Below are positions 33,017 through 47,234 of a stretch of DNA of 64,000 nucleotides, in pieces (position 1 is the first letter of the stretch; each line of letters begins with the position of its first letter). The notes beneath the pieces were generated by a model. It searched no databases. It was not told the DNA's origin and saw only the letters and a program-made list of their open reading frames with translations. The stretch is from a virus. The stretch lies in IMG/VR virus record IMGVR_UViG_3300029319_000019, positions 1-64,000 of that record; one strand, 5' to 3'. The position numbers were made by a program, and so were the translations under genes.

Positions 33017-33436
33017 TTATTTTTTTTCTGTATCATTTTTTTTGGAACTACCACCAAAAAAGAAATCAACAATTGTGTTAACTTTTGCACTCATTGCCCC
33101 AAAGATAGTGGAAATAAAACTAATTTCAAACTCTCCTAAGTTAATGTCTCCCAGCACAAAGTGATTAAACATCACAAAACTAATGCCAAAGTATGCAACT
33201 GTGAACAAAGTTGCTAACACTTTTTGGATGATAGCATCGTCCTTATACATGTCTCTTGCAGACTTGCGATCTTCTACTTCTTTAGCAAAAGCTTCGCGCT
33301 CTGCTTCTAACATTATCTTTTGTAATTCTATTTTAGCCTGATCTCTTTCTTTATCAGTTGTAATTACTTTGTCCAATATTCCTTCGGCGTTGTCTAGAAC
33401 TTTACCAAACAGTCCGCCCATTACTTTTTGTATCAT
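33017..33436 (-). CDS. Putative holin
   Basis: Amphipathic N-terminus, DRKSAR motif, two hydrophobic segments, FFFGGS and a basic tail; near a putative endolysin. Confidence 0.7.
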   Translation of the reverse strand: MIQKVMGGLFGKVLDNAEGILDKVITTDKERDQAKIELQKIMLEAEREAFAKEVEDRKSARDMYKDDAIIQKVLATLFTVAYFGISFVMFNHFVLGDINLGEFEISFISTIFGAMSAKVNTIVDFFFGGSSKKNDTEKK

Positions 33437-33899: not shown

Positions 33900-34817
33900 T
33901 TAAGATGGTATTAAAGTTTTAATAACCACAGTCATTGATATTTGAATAGTATCACCTGTACTACCATCTCCTCTTATAGCTGGATAAATCATATCACCAG
34001 CGCTTAATGTAAAATCTCTACTTAAATCTTCTACCTTAGCAGCAACATTATTAAAAGTTCCGCCATCTTTGTCAGCTGCAGCGTAAGCTCTTAATGTTGC
34101 GTTTATAGAATTTGTAGTGCCCCAATCAGGAACACCCACGAACAAACCAGCTGCAAACTGTCTATCACCGTTAGCATTTCTACCAGCTCCGTATATTCCT
34201 ACTAACTTACCAGCGTAAGGTACCCTAACACCGGCATGTTGATATTGCTTTGCTACAGATATAGTAGTACTACCAACTGTTGTCGCGTTTTGATTAGAGT
34301 CGATAGTCCAAGTATGATTTGATATACCGTTACCACCAGGAAACTCCCAATCGCCATTAGCTTGAACCGTAGAGTTACCTAAGAAAGATATGTATTGATA
34401 ATGGTATCTAGCATCAACGTGAGACTTTAAACCTGCCGGCGTTACTGCTCTAGCCGTATCAGTTCCTGTATCAGCTTCTCCAGTTGTTGCTAACTCAACA
34501 ATCCCTTTATTAGACGTACTAGCGTCTTCTCCAGCTATAGTAATAGTTCCAACACCTCCAGAAGTATCTATACCTTCACCGCCAGCTATAGTAAAGTTGG
34601 CATCGCCCGACGTCACTTGCGTCGCGTTTAAATCATCTGCCAAAAGCTGAACGGATGTTATATCGCCAGCTGGAACATTGGCTTTTACTATTTTATTATT
34701 AGCATCAAGACCAAGCATACCACCACTAGAAATAGTACCCGCGCTTACATCTTCTAAGTAAACATCGCTTCTAAATCTAGCAATTAAATCTTGTATGTAT
34801 TGACCTATAAACTTCAT
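33900..34817 (-). CDS. Tail or head fibre protein
   Basis: Tail-fibre repeat ASTSNKGIVELAT...AVTPAGLK followed by a beta-rich C-terminal domain. Confidence 0.65.
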   Translation of the reverse strand: MKFIGQYIQDLIARFRSDVYLEDVSAGTISSGGMLGLDANNKIVKANVPAGDITSVQLLADDLNATQVTSGDANFTIAGGEGIDTSGGVGTITIAGEDASTSNKGIVELATTGEADTGTDTARAVTPAGLKSHVDARYHYQYISFLGNSTVQANGDWEFPGGNGISNHTWTIDSNQNATTVGSTTISVAKQYQHAGVRVPYAGKLVGIYGAGRNANGDRQFAAGLFVGVPDWGTTNSINATLRAYAAADKDGGTFNNVAAKVEDLSRDFTLSAGDMIYPAIRGDGSTGDTIQISMTVVIKTLIPS

Positions 34818-35284
34818 TAATCAAAATCAATATATTCTATTGTTACTTCTTCTCCATTAGCTATTGCCTTTGCAATAGACGGATAAATCCTTTTATAAGC
34901 GTTAACGCTTTTACCAACAAACCCGTCAGGTAGTAGTTGGTTATTTTCCTGTGCATCGCCAACGATAAGACACCCAGCAGTGTGCTCGTCAGTGTTTCCA
35001 GTATGAATAAGAATATACTCAAAGTTAGGAACATCAGTGACATGCAACATACCACGGTGTATACCAGGATATTTTTTAGTATATCTTTCATGAAATCCAC
35101 CTTCTTTTCTTAATTCTATTTTATATGTGCCTGCAGGTACTCTAGTTTCACCTCTAACTTTTAAAGCTCTACGCTCGTCTTCAAGTGTGTAACAGAGAAA
35201 TTTATTACCCATATCACCCTCTTCAAATAATAAACCTGAAGTTGAGTCTGCTTCTGAGCTAAATCTTAATACTTTTAGTTTCAT
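34817..35284 (-). CDS. DUF5675-family protein, putative L,D-transpeptidase-fold endolysin
   Basis: CYTLED, ETRVPAGTY and ILIHTGNT..HTAGCLIVG (His/Cys) motifs. Confidence 0.8.
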   Translation of the reverse strand: MKLKVLRFSSEADSTSGLLFEEGDMGNKFLCYTLEDERRALKVRGETRVPAGTYKIELRKEGGFHERYTKKYPGIHRGMLHVTDVPNFEYILIHTGNTDEHTAGCLIVGDAQENNQLLPDGFVGKSVNAYKRIYPSIAKAIANGEEVTIEYIDFD

Positions 35285-37683
35285 TGTACAATTATTATTG
35301 TTGTAAAGTTTACCTTATCTTTAGTAACCTTTAAATAGTTTATACCTTTTTCTAATTTTATTCTTCTTACATTTTTATAGAAAACATGATCCGTACCTAA
35401 GTTGTCTATTACTAATACATCTACCTCTTCTTTAAAGTTTATGTAATCTTTTGTTGGATTAGGATATGGTATAAGCGCTGATCTTTCATACATTGCAATG
35501 TCTGTCGGTCCTGACCAGCCATCTTCACAATATGCGTATAATGCGTCACATGTGCCATCCCATGTATCATCACAGCAATAAGGATCTACCTGTATTACCC
35601 ACTCAAAACAAGCGTTAGGAATATAATATACATCACCAGAGTTACACCCAGCACTATAATAACACGAACTGTCTGCCACGTTAGCAAGCGGATTGTAATT
35701 AATAGCGGTCGCATCAGTGCAGCCAGACAAAGGATAAATACAGCTACCATTATCAGTATTTGCATTATCATCGTAATTAAGTGCTGTGCTGTCGGTACAT
35801 CCATAATAGTAAGGTATACAGTTTCCATTATCAGTATTACAAGTATCGCAATAGTTCCACATAGTTGGATCAATACACCCAAATATTACAGGTATGCAAG
35901 ATCCATCGTCAGTGTTAGCTAACGCATTATAATTAAAGGCTGCACCATCAGTACAGCCCCAGATAACGGGTATGCATGAACCATCATCTGTATTCGCTAA
36001 TATGTCATAGTTAAAAGCTGTACTATCCGTACAACCTAGTACAACATCTATACATGTACCATCATCAGCATTTGCTAATGGGTTATAGTTTATTGCATCA
36101 ACATCCATACATCCGTATACAAAAGGAGTACAAGATCCATTGTCTGTATTAGCAAGAGGATCAAAATTAAACATTGTACTATCTGTACATCCATATATAA
36201 ATGGTATGCAACTACCATTGTCTGTGTTTGCTAATGAGTTATAATTAAACATTGTATTATCTGTGCAACCAAAAATAATTGGAACACATGAGCCGTCATC
36301 TGTATTTGCTAACGGATTGTAGTTAAAGGCTGTGACGTCTAAACAACCTAAAACTACGGGCGTGCACGACCCATCATCCGTGTTTGCTAAGGAATCATAA
36401 TTAAAAGCTGTTACATCTGTACAACCGTATATATAAGGAATACAGCTACCATCGTCTACATTTGCATTAATATTGTAGTTTAACATTGTAGGATCAGTGC
36501 ATCCTTCTACTACTTCTATACAAGAGCCTGCTATTTCTACATTTGCAAGAGAGTCGTAATTTAACGCAGTACTGTCCATACACCCTATCACAACTAAAGT
36601 AGCACATGACCCATCATCATAATCATAAGAAGCGTCGTATTCTAAATATATAGGATTAGTACATCCTGGATTATAGTAACAACTTCCATCGTCTGTATTT
36701 ACTGTATCATTATAGTTTACAGCTAAGCTGTCTATACATCCGTACGTTCTTTCTATACAAGTATTACCACAATATGGTTGTCCTATAATAGGAAAGAATG
36801 GTGGTATAGGATTAACAAAACCACCTTCTATGTCTATTGCATAATAATCTTCTGAGTATAAAGAATAGCCACATTGTACTGCAGTAAAGTCTGATTGTTG
36901 TGTTATTTCAAATATTGCTCTAACAGGATAACCTGCTGCTAAATTTATAAAGAACGTTGTATCAAAACCATCTACTAAAGTATAAGTTCCAATGTCTTGA
37001 TAGTTGAATGGCGGTATTAAACTAGTTGCTTGTGCTAACTTTAAACTAGATCCAGCCCAACCATTACCAGCTAAATCTGTTAATTCTAACTCATGCATAC
37101 AGCTATCTATGTTTATATCTGTATTAGCTGAGTCTAAATAATTATATGCTAATGAGTCTGTACAACCGTATATTCTTGGTGTAAAGCACATTCCCGTGTC
37201 TAATGTAGCTGCTATGTCAAACTCTACATAGCTACTATCCATACACCCAAATACTGGAGGGGGCGGAGGGCACCCTGACGTATATATTGTATCATACATA
37301 AAGCTACCAAAGTCAGCCATAGGCAGCTCCCAAATAGTGTCGCCACATTGTTCTATATATACAGAACCATCATTACCACCCCATAAACTACCTGCTATAC
37401 CATCACCGTATGTATCATTGATAACAAAATAAAAACTATCAATAGGTGCACAAGCTGCAGCATATTGTGGTTCATAATCTATAATGTTTGTGTATGGCCC
37501 ACCTTGCATTAGTGTATCACCAAAGAAAGTCATTATATACCAAGACGTTTCTTCTGGATATTGATCAGGATTTATAGTAACATTTAAACTCCACGTACCT
37601 GGAGGGCATTGTCCAAATGTTGTAGCTACAGTAAATACTGTAACCATAATTAGTGCATATAATGTTTTTGTAAAATTATTCAT
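35281..37683 (-). CDS. Secreted Cys/Asp-repeat protein with signal peptide and T9SS type-A C-terminal sorting domain
   Basis: Signal peptide ending TFG|Q; 16 GCxDxxAxNY...DDGSC repeats; C-terminal PYPNPT...DNLG...KGINYLKV...TIIIVQ. Confidence 0.8.
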   Translation of the reverse strand: MNNFTKTLYALIMVTVFTVATTFGQCPPGTWSLNVTINPDQYPEETSWYIMTFFGDTLMQGGPYTNIIDYEPQYAAACAPIDSFYFVINDTYGDGIAGSLWGGNDGSVYIEQCGDTIWELPMADFGSFMYDTIYTSGCPPPPPVFGCMDSSYVEFDIAATLDTGMCFTPRIYGCTDSLAYNYLDSANTDINIDSCMHELELTDLAGNGWAGSSLKLAQATSLIPPFNYQDIGTYTLVDGFDTTFFINLAAGYPVRAIFEITQQSDFTAVQCGYSLYSEDYYAIDIEGGFVNPIPPFFPIIGQPYCGNTCIERTYGCIDSLAVNYNDTVNTDDGSCYYNPGCTNPIYLEYDASYDYDDGSCATLVVIGCMDSTALNYDSLANVEIAGSCIEVVEGCTDPTMLNYNINANVDDGSCIPYIYGCTDVTAFNYDSLANTDDGSCTPVVLGCLDVTAFNYNPLANTDDGSCVPIIFGCTDNTMFNYNSLANTDNGSCIPFIYGCTDSTMFNFDPLANTDNGSCTPFVYGCMDVDAINYNPLANADDGTCIDVVLGCTDSTAFNYDILANTDDGSCIPVIWGCTDGAAFNYNALANTDDGSCIPVIFGCIDPTMWNYCDTCNTDNGNCIPYYYGCTDSTALNYDDNANTDNGSCIYPLSGCTDATAINYNPLANVADSSCYYSAGCNSGDVYYIPNACFEWVIQVDPYCCDDTWDGTCDALYAYCEDGWSGPTDIAMYERSALIPYPNPTKDYINFKEEVDVLVIDNLGTDHVFYKNVRRIKLEKGINYLKVTKDKVNFTTIIIVQ
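35660..36745 (-). repeat. Tandem array of 14 ~26-aa (~78-nt) GCTD...DDGSC repeats
   Basis: Counted directly in the translation; boundaries approximate. Confidence 0.9.
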
Positions 37684-37690
37684 TATTATA

Positions 37691-38410
37691 TTATAAAGTT
37701 ATTCCTACTCTGCTAGCTATATCTTCTCTAACTAGCGTAGCGTCTGAATCGCTAAGAACTTCGTTATATATAGCAACTTCGTATATTGTTCCATTAAAAG
37801 GGTTTGAACCTCCTGTGCCTTGAGAACCCAATACTTCAAGGTTAAAATCAGACCCAGTACTATTTGCTAAAGCAAAATTGTCAAGGTCAGCGTTTACTCC
37901 TATGGTTACAGTGTTATCACCTTCTTGTCTAAACATTACTATAAACTTTTCTACTCCTCCATTTCCTTCAAAACTAAAGTCAGTAGAATGACTCACAATA
38001 AGGTCAAGTGAGTTATCAGCTCTTTTTGTCCTAAACTCATTATCAGCAGTTTGATTTATTCTTATAAAGTCAGCAGCGTTAGAGCTAGATAAAAAAGTCA
38101 TAGAAGTAGCACTGTCTGGCTCCATAGCAACAAACATAGTAAACGTAGATGTTGTTATTGTAGATGTTAAATCATAGTGGTCTCCATCATCATGATTAAA
38201 GTCAATACCACCATCTTCTACAGTTCCTTGCCTTGAAGAGGTTGATTGAGCTACGTGATTATCATTACCGCTAGAATCATCCCATTGAGCAGCAGTAACA
38301 CCTTCTCCATTTTTAAGCCATAGTTGTAAACCGCTAATATCAGATAAAGAAAACTCTGACAAAGGTCTATTACCACTAGATGATGTTGTATTTGATATTC
38401 CTAATCTCAT
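37691..38410 (-). CDS. LamG/concanavalin-A-like domain protein
   Basis: GLQLWL...QWDDSSGNDNH and FNGTIYEVAIYNEVLS motifs. Confidence 0.75.
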   Translation of the reverse strand: MRLGISNTTSSSGNRPLSEFSLSDISGLQLWLKNGEGVTAAQWDDSSGNDNHVAQSTSSRQGTVEDGGIDFNHDDGDHYDLTSTITTSTFTMFVAMEPDSATSMTFLSSSNAADFIRINQTADNEFRTKRADNSLDLIVSHSTDFSFEGNGGVEKFIVMFRQEGDNTVTIGVNADLDNFALANSTGSDFNLEVLGSQGTGGSNPFNGTIYEVAIYNEVLSDSDATLVREDIASRVGITL

Positions 38411-38766
38411 TAAAATTTACTCATTATTAGTTCGTCTATATAGTTTTGCACCTCTTTTCTTGTTGCTTGCATAGCAAAACTAAGATCTGCTTGAAATCTT
38501 TTTACTTCTTCACCGTCATCAAATATTATAATAGTTGGTACTACAGCTATTTGATATTTCTTTTGTAAATCATTATTGTCTATCATATATGATTCTTTAT
38601 CACAATCTCCTAGTTTGTTAAACCACTCTACACTGTTTTGTTCATTCCAACTAGCATTAAATTGCATCGCGGTCACCTGAGCTGAGCACGTAACACAAAC
38701 CAGCAATAATGGCAATACTAGCAAGTATGTCGCAAATGTTTTCCATATTAAATTTAGTTTTTTCAT
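38410..38766 (-). CDS. Exported thioredoxin-fold protein lacking CxxC
   Basis: Signal peptide ending CSA|Q; QFNASWN in place of F.A.WCxxC; KYQIAVVPTIIIFDDGEEVKRF cis-Pro region. Confidence 0.75.
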   Translation of the reverse strand: MKKLNLIWKTFATYLLVLPLLLVCVTCSAQVTAMQFNASWNEQNSVEWFNKLGDCDKESYMIDNNDLQKKYQIAVVPTIIIFDDGEEVKRFQADLSFAMQATRKEVQNYIDELIMSKF

Positions 38767-39042
38767 TTATCTTAATTCATCAATCTTATCTTCCATTCTA
38801 ATCATTCGCTCTTCTAATTTTTTAACATCATCACGTGTTTCTATGATTGTATTACGAATGTTTATATCCTTCATATCAAATTCCATTTTTGATACTTCAG
38901 GTTTTGGAAGCTCTTTTGCTTCTGATATGTCAGCTTGTAATGTAAACCACATACCAACAAGAGTAAAAATAAGTGCTGCAATACCTGCTAATGTTTTTAT
39001 ACTTATTTTAAAGCTAGTGTCTTCGTTTAATTCCTTTGCCAT
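38767..39042 (-). CDS. Single-TM protein with C-terminal coiled coil
   Basis: TM LAGIAALIFTLVGMWF followed by heptads; ATG at 39042 (MAKEL) preferred over TTG at 39090. Confidence 0.65.
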   Translation of the reverse strand: MAKELNEDTSFKISIKTLAGIAALIFTLVGMWFTLQADISEAKELPKPEVSKMEFDMKDINIRNTIIETRDDVKKLEERMIRMEDKIDELR

Positions 39043-39132
39043 TTTATTTTTTACATTTTGCAGAACAGTATCCGTAGCATACTTTTCCAAAAGTTAAAAA
39101 TTTAATTATATTACATAGTGTCTTTTTCATAT

Positions 39133-40167
39133 CTAAAATATTATATAGTTTATACCTAATTTAAAATCGTACCACTCTTTGTTCCAGTACTTGTTATATT
39201 TACCTTCAATAAAGCATCCTAAATTTTTAGTAGCTTTTAATCCAAATATTAAACCCCCTGAGTAATCATACCACTGTTCTCCATTATTGAAGTTGTGGTA
39301 TGAGTATTGTCCGCCATCATCATAGTGATAAGGCATTAGGTTACCCCAGGAATGTAACCAAAAGTTTTTCTTGTAGTAGTAATAATCAAATCCTACTACT
39401 ATTGAATATTGCCATTGATTAGCTAGTGCGTTTCTCTTTTTCTCTACATACTCTTCTAACACCTGTGGTATAACCACCTCATTCCAAACTTCTGCGCTAG
39501 TAGCAACAACATTTCCGTTAGGATCACTATACTCAGATTCATATACATCAACGCTATATCCTTGTTCAATAGCTAGCTGAGTGTAGTGTAAATTACCAGA
39601 TTGCATTGTCCATTCTTCTAATGGATCATAACCGTATGGTTCAGCTAATCTAGTAACTCCTCCAAAATTAAACGATAACTTTTTGTTACCTCGTAATCTA
39701 AATCTTTGCGTTGCTTCATAGTATTCTATATCTGCAAACCCATCTTTAATATACTCTACTTTTGTAAACCAAATAGGTCTTACATATCGTATAAAATGAT
39801 GTTGATCTAAATACTCTATACCTTCTTGTCTTTTATATTCTATCTCAAATAGATACTCAAAGGGATTTCTTCCTACACTTGCTGCATCAGAAAAAGATGT
39901 TTCTGTACCATCTTTAAACGGTGATGTGCCTTCATATTGAAACCTTTGTATCTTACGTATGCCCATAGCTAATGAATAGTCATATGGGGTACGTATTGTA
40001 TCATATACAAGACTACTACCATCTACAGAATATACTTCTCTATCTGATAGTGATGTGCCGCCATTTGCTGCTACATAGAATGTAGAAAACTTAAAAGCTT
40101 TTCTAAACTGTGCAGTTGCAGATAGTGACGCAAAAAGAAATACTAATATAAGTACTCTCAATTTCAT
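39133..40167 (-). CDS. Putative outer-membrane beta-barrel protein
   Basis: Signal peptide ending ATA|Q, aromatic-rich alternating strands, C-terminal FKLGINYIIF beta-signal. Confidence 0.75.
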   Translation of the reverse strand: MKLRVLILVFLFASLSATAQFRKAFKFSTFYVAANGGTSLSDREVYSVDGSSLVYDTIRTPYDYSLAMGIRKIQRFQYEGTSPFKDGTETSFSDAASVGRNPFEYLFEIEYKRQEGIEYLDQHHFIRYVRPIWFTKVEYIKDGFADIEYYEATQRFRLRGNKKLSFNFGGVTRLAEPYGYDPLEEWTMQSGNLHYTQLAIEQGYSVDVYESEYSDPNGNVVATSAEVWNEVVIPQVLEEYVEKKRNALANQWQYSIVVGFDYYYYKKNFWLHSWGNLMPYHYDDGGQYSYHNFNNGEQWYDYSGGLIFGLKATKNLGCFIEGKYNKYWNKEWYDFKLGINYIIF

Positions 40168-42839: not shown

Positions 42840-45800
42840 TTAGTTTAAATCTTCAAAACTGCTTTCGCCTGTTTCTTCTGTCTCATCCGCTCCTAGCGAT
42901 CCTCCTAATTCTGTAACATCAGAAACATCATCAAAAGTAGAATCATTCACTGTTACAATAGTGCCACCAATATTAAAGGTTCCTGTAACTTCAGTATTTG
43001 AGTCACCCGTTTCTCTATATGCTGGTATGCCGCAGTCCTTACAATACTCTTTAGCAAAGCTAAGAAAATTTGATAAATAATTTTCAGTCTCATTTTGTAT
43101 TTGGAAAGTTATACATTTTCTCCAACCGCTTGCTGGGTCATTAGAAAAAGGATCTATATGCAAACCTGTATTAGATATTGCTACATATATTACTCCAGCT
43201 AGTCCAAGTGGATTTGGAACAAATGCTCTTCTTACATATGTACCTAATGCATATGAGCCTACATTAGCAGGGTTCCAAAATTGAGAACCAGAGTTATTCC
43301 ACTTATCAACACAATTTACTTGCGCTCCTGCTAAACTAGGTGTTGCTGGATCTGTGCAATTGTATATACAAGGTAATCCTTGTCTAGACATTAAGTCTTG
43401 TATAATAACCATCTTCCATGTTTCCATGTTAGAGCAGTTGTTTCCTAGTCCTGTTATATGTTTAGTGTAAAATCTATGTCCAGATCTCGCAATACACTCA
43501 GCATTATAATCTAATAAATTAGCAATACCTCTTGGAGTACATGCTGGAATAGTTGTATCTACATCATCACAATCTTCCAAACATCCATTATATTCATATT
43601 CACAAGGACATGTAGCATCTGTATAATTTGCAGCTGGATTATAGTTAACAGCATTTTCATCCATACACCCACATATTGAATTATCAGGACAACATGTAAG
43701 ACTAAATGTTCCATCAAGACATGGGCACCCTCCTGGAGGTGGTGGATCATTAAACTCACAACACCCGTCATCTACATTTGCTAGAGGCACAGATGCACCA
43801 GCGCAGTTTACAAGATAGTTAAGTGCACTAGGATCTAAACACCCATGAATAATATTAGTACCATTTCCATTATCGCAATCTTCTATCGCTAGTGTTACCA
43901 TACCTACAAGGTGGGCGCAGGAACTGGTCAGTGCAACGTCGCCGTCAGCATCAGTGTCATATGGAAGTTCTGCATTGCCGTTAGCATTGATAAAAGCATC
44001 ATCGAAGAATGCTACCGCAAACTGATATGCTCCACCAGGAAGATCAGTAATATTTATTGTTTCATTAGCTGTAAGAGTATCAACTTCAAAAGAAGACAGA
44101 GAATCTACGTCCAATATAGGATCACCACTAGTCACTGGACCTGTAAACCAACTTCCATAAGTAATATCAACAGTCGTATGCTGTAAAACCCAAACATACC
44201 CAACACCAGCTGTGTTAGTTATATTCGCTAATAAATTTGTTGCATCTGGCAAGTTAACAGTCACAGAACCTGTAGAATTGTCATCACACAATCCTGTAGT
44301 TTCATTATAAGTTGATGTAGAATCTACTACATTACTAAATTGTACACCTCCAGATGCATTTGCTGTTGCTTCATATTCTTCTAGTTCACAACAGTCAGTA
44401 TCCAACCCTCCATTATTTTGCAAATAACCTTCGCACGCTGCTTGTGTAGGAAAGCCAAGACCAGCTGTACCTATTTCACTTACACATGTACCACATCTGT
44501 CTGGTACCCAAGTTACATTATTTCCATATAGACATGAGCCATCGTCAATAGTTGCCAGTGGATTAAAATTAGTCGCTGTTGGATCAGTGCAACCTAAAAC
44601 ATCTTCGGTAGGGTCTGTATCATAAACACAACTTCCATCATCTATTACTGCATTTGGATCAAAATTAATTGCTGCTGGATCTGTACATCCAGATGTAGAA
44701 ATAACAGGACAACAAGCTTCTATTGTAGATATTTGTGCTGGAGTAAATGGTACGAATACATCAACAGTTTCTTCCCAAACATTATTTGTTCCATAGTTAT
44801 ATGAAAAATTCACGCCTGTAGGAGCACCATGATTTTGTATTAAAGAGCAAAGTTGAGTACTTGAACTTGTAAGATTTGCAGAATTCACAACTTTGTGAAC
44901 GGCCTGGAAGGTAAATGTAGTTATGACGGTACCATCACCCATAACTAGATTAGTGTTTATGTGAAGTAAATCTAGAACGTGACCATTTCCATTACCACCT
45001 ATTTGTATAGGATCACCATTTGTATTTAAAGTAGTAAATTGAAGTGCATTACCGCTAAAGAAAGTATTTCCAATACCTATTACTTCATTTGGATTAAATG
45101 ACGGATAGCACAGATAATTATTAACTAAATACTGTGCATATACCCAAGTATTAGATCCAGAAGCAAAATTCAGAAACTGGCCAGCAGTAGGACCATTGCT
45201 AATAATAAAACCACCAGCATTTAAAACATCAATTATGTCAGGATTTGATATACCTAAAGGTACAGTGCTAATTCTAGGAAAGTCTCCAAGTGTAGGATGA
45301 GTTTCACAAGTTACCTCTACCTCAAAATTTAAATCATTACAACCATCAAAGTCAGGATCTATTGGTAAACATGAACCATCATCAAAAGTAGCAACTGGGT
45401 TAAAATTTGGAGAGCTTGGATTTGTACATCCTCCCTGTCCCACTGAATACTCTCCAAAAATAGTATAACACTGTTCTACTTCATCATCACCATCGTGAGT
45501 TCCATCATTATCATAAACAGCCGCTATAAAATATCTTCCATCTTCTAAACCTGTAAATGTATGCGCACCCCCAGTTCCTGAAACTGTTGTAATTAATGTT
45601 GAATCTTGAGTTAGATAAGTAAGGCCGTCTGCTCCACCTTGTATAAATAGCTGCGCAAGTTGCACAGTTACCTGAGTAATGTTAATCTTATATAACTTAT
45701 AATCAATTGGAGCAGCCTGATTACTAGTAGTAAATTCTGAAGCAGGGTTAAAAATTAAAGGAGTTGGTCCAGGAAGAACAGTATAAGGCGATGCAAAATT

Positions 45801-47234
45801 AACTCCTGCAAACGAAATAGTACCATCAGAAAGACTTGCTCCCGCAGGAGTTGATGTTGCAGGGGTCGTGCTTGTTCCTATACCTTCTTCAAATACAGGT
45901 CCTAGTACTTGTAAAAATCTACCACTACCTGCTTCTAACTGACCTGTAGTAGCATTACAAAATACACAGGCAGCATCTTCATTTGTAGTAACAGTATTAT
46001 CGTAGTTAATTGCAGATGCAGTGTCTTTACATCCAAAAGAGCTATTTACAACATCTATATCCTCTAAGATATTAAATGTCATAATATCACTACAGGCCGT
46101 TCCAGTGTTAGAATCTGTTACTGTAATTTCATATGATCCTGGGAATAAACCACTAATAGTAAAAGGAGAGGAACTTATTCCTGAAGTTGTTGCTGTGCTG
46201 TAAGTTAATGTTGGGTTATCTAAAGATAAAGCTTCTACAGTCGCAGTAAAGTTTGCTGTACCACCTGTAACAGTAACAGTGATTGTACCATCAGCTGTAT
46301 CTGTAGTTGCTGCAGTTGAATTTGATAAAGTTATTTCAAAATCATCACATCCAGTAGTATACTCACAACATCCTCCATCTACATTAACATAATCATTAAG
46401 CCTTTGTGAAGTAAGAGCAATGCCATCACAATCGTTAGCATGCGTACCACCAGGTAAATCTGTACAAGGTAATGATTGACCAACACATCCTGTTAAGTAG
46501 TAGTTTGAGGCTGTAGGATCTAAACATACACTGTTTATAATAAGATCCCTAGCCTGCATTTGATTAAATACAAAACCACCCACAACTGTTGGTTGATCTT
46601 TTCCTGTAACATTTGGAGTTGTAGTAAATAATAAACTACTATTATTATCAAATCCTCCTCTAGGCTTACCTAAATTTTCAGAAGTAGACCCGCTGTTTGT
46701 ATATTTTATGCTATTTAAAAACTGATTTTGTAAATCAGTAGATGCTACATATGCTGCATTGCCAGAACTTAAATAATAAAAATCTTTTTTACTACTTGTA
46801 TCTAAATGTGGATTTGTAGATTCTGGAAATATTACTAACTGTTTAAATACTGCTTTATCATAATATAAAGCATCTGTAATATTATATCCAGTTTTTGAGC
46901 CTTCTTCTATAGAAAATGTAAAAGACCTTTGTAAACTTGCATATGGAACTGGTAAAGCTTGTGCTTCTGTTAGTTCATTTAAAACAACTTGACTTGTATC
47001 CCCGTTTCTAAATACAATGTCAAATGTACCTGAACCGTTGTAAGTTAGTACTATTTCATTTGTTCCGTCTCTTAGAGATTGTCTAGTATCAGAAGTGATT
47101 ACACTTAAACCCTTAAGAGTAGGTGTTATAGATACAATAGGATTCTCTGCATGAGAATTGAAAATAGCGTAGTTTACGCCAGCAGCATCTTTTAGATACT
47201 TATATGAATAAAATGTCTGTAATACCTTTGACAT
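42840..47234 (-). CDS. Large Cys-rich tail hub/fibre protein with GCTDP repeats and an SprB-like Ig module
   Basis: About 7 GCxDPxAxN...DDGSC repeats; DGTITVTVTGGT...GL.PG.Y.ITVTD module; no signal peptide; tail-hub gene position. Confidence 0.65.
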   Translation of the reverse strand: MSKVLQTFYSYKYLKDAAGVNYAIFNSHAENPIVSITPTLKGLSVITSDTRQSLRDGTNEIVLTYNGSGTFDIVFRNGDTSQVVLNELTEAQALPVPYASLQRSFTFSIEEGSKTGYNITDALYYDKAVFKQLVIFPESTNPHLDTSSKKDFYYLSSGNAAYVASTDLQNQFLNSIKYTNSGSTSENLGKPRGGFDNNSSLLFTTTPNVTGKDQPTVVGGFVFNQMQARDLIINSVCLDPTASNYYLTGCVGQSLPCTDLPGGTHANDCDGIALTSQRLNDYVNVDGGCCEYTTGCDDFEITLSNSTAATTDTADGTITVTVTGGTANFTATVEALSLDNPTLTYSTATTSGISSSPFTISGLFPGSYEITVTDSNTGTACSDIMTFNILEDIDVVNSSFGCKDTASAINYDNTVTTNEDAACVFCNATTGQLEAGSGRFLQVLGPVFEEGIGTSTTPATSTPAGASLSDGTISFAGVNFASPYTVLPGPTPLIFNPASEFTTSNQAAPIDYKLYKINITQVTVQLAQLFIQGGADGLTYLTQDSTLITTVSGTGGAHTFTGLEDGRYFIAAVYDNDGTHDGDDEVEQCYTIFGEYSVGQGGCTNPSSPNFNPVATFDDGSCLPIDPDFDGCNDLNFEVEVTCETHPTLGDFPRISTVPLGISNPDIIDVLNAGGFIISNGPTAGQFLNFASGSNTWVYAQYLVNNYLCYPSFNPNEVIGIGNTFFSGNALQFTTLNTNGDPIQIGGNGNGHVLDLLHINTNLVMGDGTVITTFTFQAVHKVVNSANLTSSSTQLCSLIQNHGAPTGVNFSYNYGTNNVWEETVDVFVPFTPAQISTIEACCPVISTSGCTDPAAINFDPNAVIDDGSCVYDTDPTEDVLGCTDPTATNFNPLATIDDGSCLYGNNVTWVPDRCGTCVSEIGTAGLGFPTQAACEGYLQNNGGLDTDCCELEEYEATANASGGVQFSNVVDSTSTYNETTGLCDDNSTGSVTVNLPDATNLLANITNTAGVGYVWVLQHTTVDITYGSWFTGPVTSGDPILDVDSLSSFEVDTLTANETINITDLPGGAYQFAVAFFDDAFINANGNAELPYDTDADGDVALTSSCAHLVGMVTLAIEDCDNGNGTNIIHGCLDPSALNYLVNCAGASVPLANVDDGCCEFNDPPPPGGCPCLDGTFSLTCCPDNSICGCMDENAVNYNPAANYTDATCPCEYEYNGCLEDCDDVDTTIPACTPRGIANLLDYNAECIARSGHRFYTKHITGLGNNCSNMETWKMVIIQDLMSRQGLPCIYNCTDPATPSLAGAQVNCVDKWNNSGSQFWNPANVGSYALGTYVRRAFVPNPLGLAGVIYVAISNTGLHIDPFSNDPASGWRKCITFQIQNETENYLSNFLSFAKEYCKDCGIPAYRETGDSNTEVTGTFNIGGTIVTVNDSTFDDVSDVTELGGSLGADETEETGESSFEDLN

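What the first reader, a model, noticed from the sequence alone, without database searches (positions are those of the whole stretch)
35281..37683. Phage-encoded cargo for the host type IX secretion system
Seen: Sec signal peptide with +1 Gln, 16 disulfide/Asp-rich repeats, and a ~70-aa C-terminus (YPNP...DNLG...KG..YLKV...TIIIVQ) matching the type-A T9SS sorting-domain pattern. Established: such CTDs route Bacteroidota proteins through the T9SS to the cell surface or medium. Inference: the phage uses the host T9SS to display or release an adhesin-like protein during infection. Possible roles are receptor masking, aggregation with new hosts, grazer evasion or jamming the translocon. This is unusual cargo for a phage late operon.
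Basis: partly seen in the sequence, partly recalled or inferred. Interest (0 to 1): 0.8.

Follow-up and report, generated by a model that had tools for sequence, protein, structure and literature searches.

The report
Phage-encoded type IX secretion cargo
A marine crAss-like phage of Bacteroidota carries a conserved gene for a long cysteine-repeat stalk protein with both host export labels (a Sec signal peptide and a type IX secretion tail), so the infected cell very probably exports it; such phage genes have been noted before but never tested.

Summary
ORF 35281-37683 (-) encodes 800 aa: a signal peptide with Gln at +1, two globular N-terminal domains, 16 copies of a 26-aa two-cysteine Asp/Asn-rich repeat, a Cys-rich module and a 62-aa tail. 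The tail alone scores below the curated cut-offs (PF18962 14-19 bits against 27; TIGR04183 11.9 against 23). Homology is still solid. All 39 orthologous tails hit PF18962, their profile finds solved T9SS CTDs (8glj_D, E 3e-10), and the AlphaFold model's two best matches among 48,161 chains are translocon-bound CTDs (Z 8.5 and 7.9).

The genome is an 80-kb, apparently virulent, distant crAss-like phage. The gene lies in the virion-gene block. It is conserved with synteny in dozens of IMG/VR contigs, is under purifying selection, and is mosaic: heads and tails recombine independently. It follows a virus-only outer-membrane barrel, a TM coiled-coil protein and a CxxC-less thioredoxin-fold protein. 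Its repeats also occur in a virion-type protein of the same phage and in giant secreted proteins of a T9SS-bearing Flavobacteriales MAG.

Export through Sec and then T9SS is well supported. The biological role is only inferred. Phage T9SS cargo was reported in 2019 and 2020, and this scan has met the same family on other phage DNA. It is a new member of a known kind.

The parts
37612..37683 (-). Sec signal peptide, residues 1-24; predicted cleavage T-F-G|Q leaves Gln at +1 (Bacteroidota Q-rule)
   Evidence: Sequence. Heuristic screen. Orthologues keep an N-terminal hydrophobic leader ending in ...Q: 29 of 40 match a strict pattern and 10 more do by eye. Q-rule: PMC5837995.
37264..37611 (-). 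Globular domain N1, residues 25-140 (DQYPEETSW and YGDG motifs)
   Evidence: No Pfam or PDB sequence match. Nearest Atlas clusters are virus-only. dN/dS 0.04-0.11 against close orthologues. Relatives at about 30% identity sit inside giant ORFs of a Flavobacteriales MAG.
37090..37263 (-). Pro-rich linker plus repeats 1-2, residues 141-198
   Evidence: GC.D cores at residues 146 and 173.
36754..37089 (-). Globular domain N2, residues 199-310
   Evidence: dN/dS 0.03-0.12. No family match.
35644..36753 (-). Array of 14 further 26-aa repeats (GC.D..A.NY..A..DDGSC), residues 311-680; 24% Asp+Asn
   Evidence: Weak hits to PF25721 T4_Y03C and phrog_2192. No solved relative.
35470..35643 (-). Cys-rich pre-CTD module, residues 681-738 (..YCC..WD..C..Y.YC.DGWSGPTD)
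   Evidence: Conserved in all orthologues, whichever tail follows. dN/dS 0.02-0.11 against close relatives.
35284..35469 (-). T9SS type-A C-terminal sorting domain, residues 739-800, of a divergent sub-type ending ..TTIIIVQ
   Evidence: PF18962 14.3 and 19.1 bits, TIGR04183 11.9 bits. An HMM built from 35 canonical orthologous tails gives 77.9 bits over residues 718-800. Family profile against the PDB: 8glj_D at 3.2e-10. AlphaFold pLDDT 80. VIA Z 8.5 and 7.9 to translocon-bound CTDs. dN/dS 0.11-0.28 within the sub-type.
39133..40167 (-). Context: omp344, a virus-only predicted outer-membrane beta-barrel (signal peptide A-T-A|Q, C-terminal ..GINYIIF)
   Evidence: AlphaFold pLDDT 77, pTM 0.71, about 14 strands. 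Only generic OMP barrels match. Syntenic with the cargo.
38767..39090 (-). Context: p107, a single-TM protein with a coiled-coil C-terminal part (orthologues start at the internal Met, about 91 aa)
   Evidence: Orthologue sequences. Synteny.
38410..38766 (-). Context: trx118, an exported thioredoxin-fold protein (C-S-A|Q) with CxxC replaced by WN.xN in all 44 orthologues
   Evidence: Weak Thioredoxin hits. Orthologue sequences.
42840..47234 (-). Context: 1464-aa protein without signal peptide that carries several copies of the same repeat
   Evidence: BLASTP E 2e-12 to 3e-9 over repeat pairs. Sequence.

Best explanation
The gene encodes a phage-made substrate of the host's type IX secretion system.

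Shown: it has an N-terminal Sec signal peptide and a terminal domain homologous in sequence and fold to type-A T9SS CTDs. It is conserved, selected and syntenic in a large group of marine crAss-like phages.

Inferred pathway: the gene is transcribed with the virion genes. The pre-protein crosses the inner membrane by Sec. Signal peptidase I exposes Gln, which the host cyclises to pyroglutamate. The 47-Cys passenger folds and oxidises in the periplasm, possibly helped by the neighbouring exported CxxC-less thioredoxin-fold protein. The CTD is then recognised by PorV and the SprA translocon, and the protein is passed to the cell surface or the medium.

Inferred product: because anchoring or cleavage happens at the C-terminal end, two N-terminal globular heads would sit at the tip of a roughly 16-repeat, probably Ca-binding and disulfide-locked stalk. 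That is the geometry of an adhesin or surface fibril. It is built from the same modules as giant secreted proteins of Flavobacteriales and as a virion-type protein of the same phage.

Inferred role: it most likely alters the surface of the infected cell. It could occupy or mimic surface structures that virions bind, which would limit superinfection or the loss of progeny on debris. The role is not established.
For: CTD:
- All 39 orthologous tails hit PF18962 (best E 1.6e-15).
- Relatives score 38.9-46.8 bits, over the cut-off of 27.
- The family profile finds 8glj_D, 8glk_D, RgpB and other solved CTDs.
- An HMM that excludes the window's own sub-type scores it at 77.9 bits, and it is the only such ORF in the genome.
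- The two best of 48,161 chains are translocon-bound substrate CTDs: Z 8.5, rmsd 1.8 A over 66 residues, and Z 7.9. RgpB, mirolase, RemA, PorZ and PorU are in the top 15 (Foldseek agrees).

Signal peptide.

Phage and host:
- TerL, portal and MCP are present.
- The MCP is about 31% identical to crAss-like phages of Bacteroides and Flavobacterium.
- The other strand carries a replication module, and no integrase was found among the ORFs scanned.

Conservation:
- 63 viral loci hold relatives.
- Synteny is omp344-p107-trx118-(LamG)-cargo.
- 50 of the 52 closest omp344 loci have a cargo-type gene beside the trio.
- 39 of 40 distinct orthologues keep a YPNP-type CTD.

Selection and mosaicism: omega is 0.03-0.28, and L028 shares the tail but not the heads while L011 shares the heads but not the tail.

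Real junction: zero-mismatch metagenome contigs from different studies bridge 37552-38692.

Host-type modules: a Flavobacteriales MAG has 122 matches in giant signal-peptide ORFs and encodes SprA at 2590 bits.
Against: - The protein's own score is below both curated cut-offs.
- Its tail ends ..IIIVQ without the usual Lys-rich last strand, and the G.Y motif is shifted. A weakened or altered signal cannot be excluded.
- No host is known, and no secretion, processing or expression data exist. The only RNA-library match is a 249-nt contig at 98% identity.
- The same repeat occurs in proteins without a signal peptide that look like virion parts, so the repeat itself does not imply export.
'Adhesin-like' therefore rests on architecture only.
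Confidence: 0.8

Rival explanations
1. The cargo belongs to a lysis or egress apparatus. The barrel, the TM coiled-coil protein and the dead thioredoxin would form a spanin-like envelope-disrupting set. The exported repeat protein would act with them at or after lysis, not as a surface adhesin during infection.
For: p107 has the i-spanin architecture of an N-terminal TM segment followed by a coiled coil. The cassette is followed by DUF5675 and a weak holin-like protein. The genes are tightly packed, with an ATGA overlap between the cargo and DUF5675.
Against: No lysis-family match exists for omp344, p107 or trx118. The holin hit is below threshold, at 19-22 bits. An 800-aa stalk with a T9SS tag has no known counterpart in lysis systems. 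Among the 52 closest loci the trio was almost never without the cargo, so independence could not be shown.
Confidence: 0.12
2. It is a virion structural protein, such as a tail fibre or decoration protein. The hydrophobic N-terminus would be a false signal peptide, and the terminal beta-sandwich would be an ordinary Ig-like domain of the kind common on phage particles.
For: The gene lies inside the virion-gene block next to LamG-type and tail-fibre-like genes. The repeat also occurs in a 1464-aa protein and in a 3061-aa protein of other phages, both without a signal peptide. Ig-like folds give middling structural scores to many families.
Against: The tail is homologous specifically to T9SS CTDs by sequence profile, not merely Ig-like. 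The signal peptide with +1 Gln is conserved in nearly all orthologues and shared with two neighbouring envelope proteins. The proteins that carry the repeat and look like virion parts lack both tags.
Confidence: 0.05
3. It is a passenger gene recently captured from the host with no function for the phage, or an assembly chimera.
For: The modules are shared with cellular Flavobacteriales giant proteins.
Against: Same position in dozens of phage contigs at 37-86% identity. Strong purifying selection. Virus-only nearest clusters for the N-terminal domains. Zero-mismatch contigs from separate studies bridge the 5' junction. GC content is like the rest of the genome.
Confidence: 0.03

Closest known systems
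T9SS type-A cargo genes of 'Cryophage' (Bellas et al. 2020, PMC7468147)
   Same: Phage-encoded proteins carrying a T9SS type-A sorting domain, proposed to hijack the host system. The genes vary between phage variants. No experiment has been done.
   Different: The passengers there are enzymes or a PA14 protein (endoglucanase, GH39), in a freshwater or glacial phage. Here the passenger is a non-enzymatic Cys-repeat stalk with two uncatalogued heads, in marine crAss-like phages, fixed beside three other envelope-targeted genes.
T9SS sorting-domain proteins near crAss-BACON ORFs in gut crAss-like phages (de Jonge et al. 2019, PMC6949934)
   Same: crAss-like phages of Bacteroidota with ORFs annotated as T9SS sorting-domain proteins, some combined with tandem repeat domains.
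   Different: The repeats there are BACON domains, the location is upstream of the head genes, and the paper only mentions them. There is no sequence relationship to this family.
Bacterial type-A CTD cargo, e.g. F. johnsoniae FspA, NucA and RemA CTDs bound to SprA/PorV (PDB 8glj, 8glk, 8gl6) and P. gingivalis RgpB (5hfs, 5ag8)
   Same: Signal peptide plus a terminal beta-sandwich CTD of about 70 aa. Profile E is 3e-10 and 7e-9 to 8glj_D and 8glk_D. Z is 8.5 and 7.9, rmsd about 2 A.
   Different: This one is encoded by a virus. Its tail sub-type lacks the Lys-rich last strand and scores below the curated cut-offs on its own.
Giant secreted repeat proteins of a Flavobacteriales MAG (loci L064, L069, L070)
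   Same: Signal peptide, N1-like head at about 30% identity, many copies of the same 26-aa two-Cys repeat, and C-terminal sorting-type tails.
   Different: They are cellular and 1,500-7,000 aa long. The phage proteins are 600-1,300 aa, and their head domains fall in virus-only clusters.
Phage-encoded envelope proteins in late regions: lambda Lom and Bor, T5 Llp (from my own knowledge, not tested here)
   Same: Phage genes placed among tail or late genes whose products go to the host outer membrane and change surface properties or block receptors.
   Different: No homology. Those use Sec, Lol or BAM only, not T9SS. Lom and Bor act in lysogens, whereas this phage shows no lysogeny genes among the ORFs scanned.

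Membership tests
T9SS type-A CTD cargo (Pfam PF18962 / NCBIfam TIGR04183) | Terminal domain homologous to Por_Secre_tail | tested here: met
   The protein's own scores are sub-threshold: 14.3 bits for the whole protein and 19.1 for the 85-aa piece against a cut-off of 27, and TIGR04183 11.9 against 23. Homology is shown transitively. All 39 orthologous tails hit PF18962 (best 1.6e-15), and relatives score 38.9-46.8 bits. An HMM of 35 canonical tails scores the window at 77.9 bits. The family profile hits 8glj_D at 3.2e-10.
T9SS type-A CTD cargo (Pfam PF18962 / NCBIfam TIGR04183) | Domain lies at the extreme C-terminus and spans the whole model | tested here: met
   Residues 740-800 of 800, model positions 2-71 of 75 and 2-72 of 72.
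T9SS type-A CTD cargo (Pfam PF18962 / NCBIfam TIGR04183) | N-terminal Sec (SPI) signal peptide | tested here: met
   Heuristic only, as no SignalP was available. There is a basic n-region, a 17-residue hydrophobic core and T-F-G|Q. It is conserved in orthologues.
T9SS type-A CTD cargo (Pfam PF18962 / NCBIfam TIGR04183) | Compact Ig-like beta-sandwich fold of the CTD | tested here: met
   AlphaFold model with pLDDT 80 (above 85 over the sandwich). VIA-align gives Z 8.5 with rmsd 1.8 A over 66 residues to 8glj_D and Z 7.9 to 8glk_D, ranks 1-2 of 48,161. The top Foldseek hits are also CTDs, at weak E-values of 0.004-0.1.
T9SS type-A CTD cargo (Pfam PF18962 / NCBIfam TIGR04183) | Conserved CTD motifs (YPNP-type, G.Y, Lys-rich last strand) | tested here: inconclusive
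   YPNP is present. The Gly of G.Y is present, but Tyr is shifted by one residue (GINY). The last strand is TTIIIVQ instead of K.I.K. The sub-type is under purifying selection (omega 0.11-0.28).
T9SS type-A CTD cargo (Pfam PF18962 / NCBIfam TIGR04183) | Export depends on the T9SS, and the CTD is removed by PorU | not testable with these tools
   This needs a reporter fusion or proteomics in wild-type and T9SS-mutant hosts.
T9SS type-A CTD cargo (Pfam PF18962 / NCBIfam TIGR04183) | Producer cell possesses a T9SS | not testable with these tools
   The host is unknown. Indirect evidence: the MCP's relatives infect Bacteroides and Flavobacterium, the signal peptides follow the Q-rule, and the one cellular genome sharing the modules is a Flavobacteriales MAG with SprA at 2589.6 bits.
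PorV / PorP-SprF outer-membrane partners of T9SS cargo (considered for the neighbour omp344) | Sequence or fold match specific to PorV (FadL-like) or PorP/SprF | tested here: inconclusive
   No Pfam or NCBIfam hit. The best folds are generic 12-stranded barrels at Z 10-11. PorV (6h3i_F) scores Z 7.8 at rank 26.

The most novel reading that the evidence does not exclude
The cargo is the exported arm of a four-part phage envelope apparatus: a virus-only outer-membrane barrel, an inner-membrane coiled-coil protein, a redox-dead thioredoxin-fold chaperone and a T9SS-exported stalk. A virulent crAss-like phage would install it late in infection to refit the cell surface. Because the stalk uses the same repeat as host giant surface proteins and as a virion-type protein of the phage, it could occupy or mimic the structures that virions bind. 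That would exclude competitors or spare progeny from debris. A corollary: the ~40-aa short tail that replaces the type-A CTD in about a fifth of orthologues, and that also ends cellular giant proteins, would be an uncatalogued sorting signal.
Probability: 0.2. Interest if true: 0.75.

Novelty: new member of a known kind. Interest (0 to 1): 0.5.

Why it matters
T9SS substrates shape adhesion, gliding and polymer degradation in marine Flavobacteriia, and T9SS and gliding genes are recurrent phage-resistance loci in Flavobacterium (10.1101/2020.10.02.323337; PMC9804748). Here a large, conserved family of phage-made T9SS cargo sits in a fixed cassette with three other envelope proteins. That suggests virulent marine phages routinely rebuild the surface of the cells they infect, through a host secretion system that no phage has been shown experimentally to use. 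The family offers concrete material for testing: the CTD sub-types, the short tail, and the dead thioredoxin as a possible chaperone.

Tried and rejected
- **Deposited phage genomes:** megablast and tblastn of the gene, the protein and a canonical orthologous tail against INPHARED gave no match. That shows only that no deposited phage is close.
- **TIGR04183 over the whole genome:** nothing at E <= 0.001, and the controls did not ring either, so the result is uninformative.
- **Passenger function:** no Pfam, PHROG or NCBIfam family beyond weak T4_Y03C and phrog_2192 hits. There is no solved relative by sequence, and the nearest Atlas clusters are unnamed and viral.
- **omp344 as PorV or PorP:** not supported specifically.
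- **Expression:** the one RNA library holds only a 249-nt contig at 98% identity inside the repeat array and two tiny pieces. This is not evidence of transcription.
- **Repeat-number polymorphism:** joints inside the array skip net multiples of 78 nt, but their flanks are under 30 nt, so this is only a hint.
- **Trio without cargo (lead from e1-5843942):** among the 52 closest omp344 loci with enough flank, 39 have a type-A CTD ORF, 11 have a repeat ORF (10 of them ending in a short tail; the eleventh runs off its contig), and only 2 have neither. More distant loci (over 500) were not examined.
- **Short tail as half of a type-A CTD:** hhalign probability is 8% and there is no Pfam hit, so this is not shown.
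- **Origin of the long relatives:** The contexts of the 1,200-1,400-aa relatives on 128-277-kb contigs could not be read, and no phylogeny against host homologues was built.
Full report
**What is there.** ORF 35281-37683 on the minus strand encodes 800 residues. Reading from the N-terminus:
- Residues 1-24 form a signal peptide with a basic n-region, a 17-residue hydrophobic core and T-F-G|Q.
- Residues 25-140 form a globular domain, N1.
- Next come a Pro-rich linker and two 26-aa repeats.
- Residues 199-310 form a second globular domain, N2.
- Fourteen more repeats follow, giving 16 GC.D/GC.N cores in all.
- Residues 681-738 form a Cys-rich module.
- The last 62 residues form the tail.

The mature protein has 47 Cys, and the repeat array is 24% Asp+Asn. 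At the DNA level the period is 78 nt, but the copies are diverged. The array is therefore old and is kept at the protein level.

**Is the tail a T9SS CTD?** On its own it is sub-threshold. PF18962 gives 14.3 bits for the whole protein and 19.1 for the 85-aa piece, against a cut-off of 27. TIGR04183 gives 11.9 against 23. Both hits lie at the very end of the protein and span the whole model. The family settles the question:
- Relatives' tails show the classic YPNP / G.Y / K.I.K pattern, and the window belongs to a divergent sub-type ending ..IIIVQ.
- All 39 aligned tails hit PF18962 (best E 1.6e-15), and full-length relatives score 38.9-46.8 bits.
- The family profile finds substrate CTDs solved inside the SprA translocon (8glj_D at 3.2e-10, 8glk_D at 7.4e-9) and RgpB.
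- An HMM built only from canonical tails scores the window at 77.9 bits over residues 718-800, a stretch that includes the conserved linker. It is the only such ORF in the 80-kb genome.
- The AlphaFold model (pLDDT 80) has as its two best matches among 48,161 representative chains 8glj_D (Z 8.5, rmsd 1.8 A over 66 residues) and 8glk_D (Z 7.9). The RgpB, mirolase, RemA, PorZ and PorU CTDs are in the top 15. Foldseek ranks the same entries first, at weak E-values.

**Signal peptides.** A crude screen flags only three ORFs in the genome: this one and two neighbours. All three have Gln at +1. This fits the Bacteroidota Q-rule (PMC5837995), which has already been noted for phage proteins (PMC10367356). 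Orthologues keep such leaders.

**The phage.**
- The window is bases 1-64,000 of an 80,339-bp IMG/VR record that CheckV rates 93% complete.
- TerL, portal and MCP lie on the same strand as the gene.
- The MCP's nearest deposited relatives are crAss-like phages of Bacteroides and Flavobacterium, at about 31% identity. This agrees with earlier notes of this scan on the same genome.
- The other strand carries DNA polymerase, helicases, primase and rIIA/rIIB-like genes. No integrase was found among the ORFs scanned.
- The gene is tightly packed with its neighbours, seven bases after the upstream stop and with an ATGA overlap with DUF5675.

**Conservation.**
- More than 7,400 database proteins match, although many match through the repeats alone.
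- 63 IMG/VR loci encode relatives.
- In about 40 of these the order is omp344 - p107 - trx118 - (LamG) - cargo. A more distant group has the cargo ahead of the trio.
- Searching from omp344 instead, 50 of the 52 closest loci have a cargo-type gene beside the trio.
- Purifying selection is strong: omega is 0.03-0.12 for N1 and N2, and 0.11-0.28 for the CTD within its sub-type.
- The gene is mosaic. L028 shares the tail (92%) but not the heads (40%). L011 shares the heads (97% and 91%) but not the tail (35%).
- Zero-mismatch contigs from marine metagenomes of different studies bridge the cargo's 5' end into LamG239 and trx118.

**Neighbours.**
- omp344 is a virus-only family. It has a signal peptide, a terminal aromatic beta-signal and a predicted barrel of about 14 strands. 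It matches only generic small barrels, and PorV ranks 26th.
- p107 has one TM segment and a coiled coil.
- trx118 is an exported thioredoxin fold whose CxxC is replaced by WN.xN in every orthologue.
- That a dead thioredoxin travels with a 47-Cys exported protein suggests a chaperone role. This is an inference.

**Where the modules come from.**
- The same repeat occurs in a 1464-aa protein of this phage that lacks a signal peptide, and in a 3061-aa protein of other phages.
- The genome-collection scan gave one cellular hit, a Flavobacteriales MAG.
- That MAG holds 122 matches inside giant ORFs of up to 6,958 aa. Some of these have an N1-like head (about 30% identity), signal peptides and sorting-type tails.
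- The MAG also encodes SprA.
- The phage protein is therefore built like its presumed hosts' own surface proteins. Some relatives carry a MAM adhesion domain as the head.

**Reading.** Export by Sec and then T9SS is well supported (about 0.8). The product is a stalk with distal heads, which is adhesin-like by geometry. Its role in infection is unknown. Surface refitting or receptor masking is my preferred guess, and a role with the trio in lysis or egress is the main rival.

**Novelty.** Phage T9SS sorting-domain proteins were reported in 2019 (PMC6949934) and 2020 (PMC7468147). Further literature searches found no experimental work. This scan has also described the same family and cassette on other phage genomes. 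It is a new member of a known kind.

**Limits.** There was no SignalP. The passenger was not folded.

Noticed in passing
window 38410-40167 (-): A conserved trio precedes the cargo: a virus-only predicted outer-membrane barrel (344 aa), a TM coiled-coil protein, and an exported thioredoxin fold with CxxC lost in all orthologues. At least 580 IMG/VR stretches encode the barrel.
   Followed up: partly
L108, L125, L130-L132, L139, L141, L148-L150, L037 (ORF ends); cellular L064:17600-17749, L070:10128-10277, L071:6008-6157: About a fifth of orthologous cargo genes replace the 62-aa type-A CTD with a ~40-aa tail (..ITDLLGRP....LLFYIYDDGTVEKK..) after the same Cys-rich module. The same tail ends giant secreted proteins of a Flavobacteriales MAG. 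It has no Pfam hit, and hhalign to the CTD gives only 8% probability. It may be an uncatalogued sorting signal.
   Followed up: partly
window 37612-37683; L002:9517-9858 and relatives: The same signal-peptide module (..LYALIM..VFT.AT.F[GS]Q) heads different genes of the cassette in different phages. It is on the cargo here, on trx118 in L002, L009 and L018-L020, and on barrel genes in L044-type loci in a similar form. Leaders seem to be exchanged between genes.
   Followed up: no
window 42840-47234 (-): A 1464-aa protein without a signal peptide, in the tail-gene region, carries several copies of the 26-aa two-Cys repeat between other domains. A 3061-aa protein in L062 and L063 does the same.
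   Followed up: partly
window 34817-35284 (-): A DUF5675 protein (95.9 bits) starts in an ATGA overlap with the cargo's stop codon. By eye it has an H..(8)..T-A-G-C motif reminiscent of YkuD-type L,D-peptidases, and a weak holin-like gene lies at 33017-33436. It may be the endolysin. This was not tested.
   Followed up: no
G001 (Flavobacteriales MAG), e.g. C12:82000-117000, C2:47000-61500: The 2.3-Mb MAG devotes several giant ORFs (6,958, 4,058, 3,660 and 2,776 aa) to arrays of this repeat. 122 matches to a 291-aa query were found.
   Followed up: partly
window 35750-36400: Metagenome contigs show joints inside the repeat array that skip net multiples of 78 nt (1, 3 or 7 repeats). This fits the range of 6-22 repeat cores among orthologues, but the flanks are under 30 nt.
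   Followed up: partly
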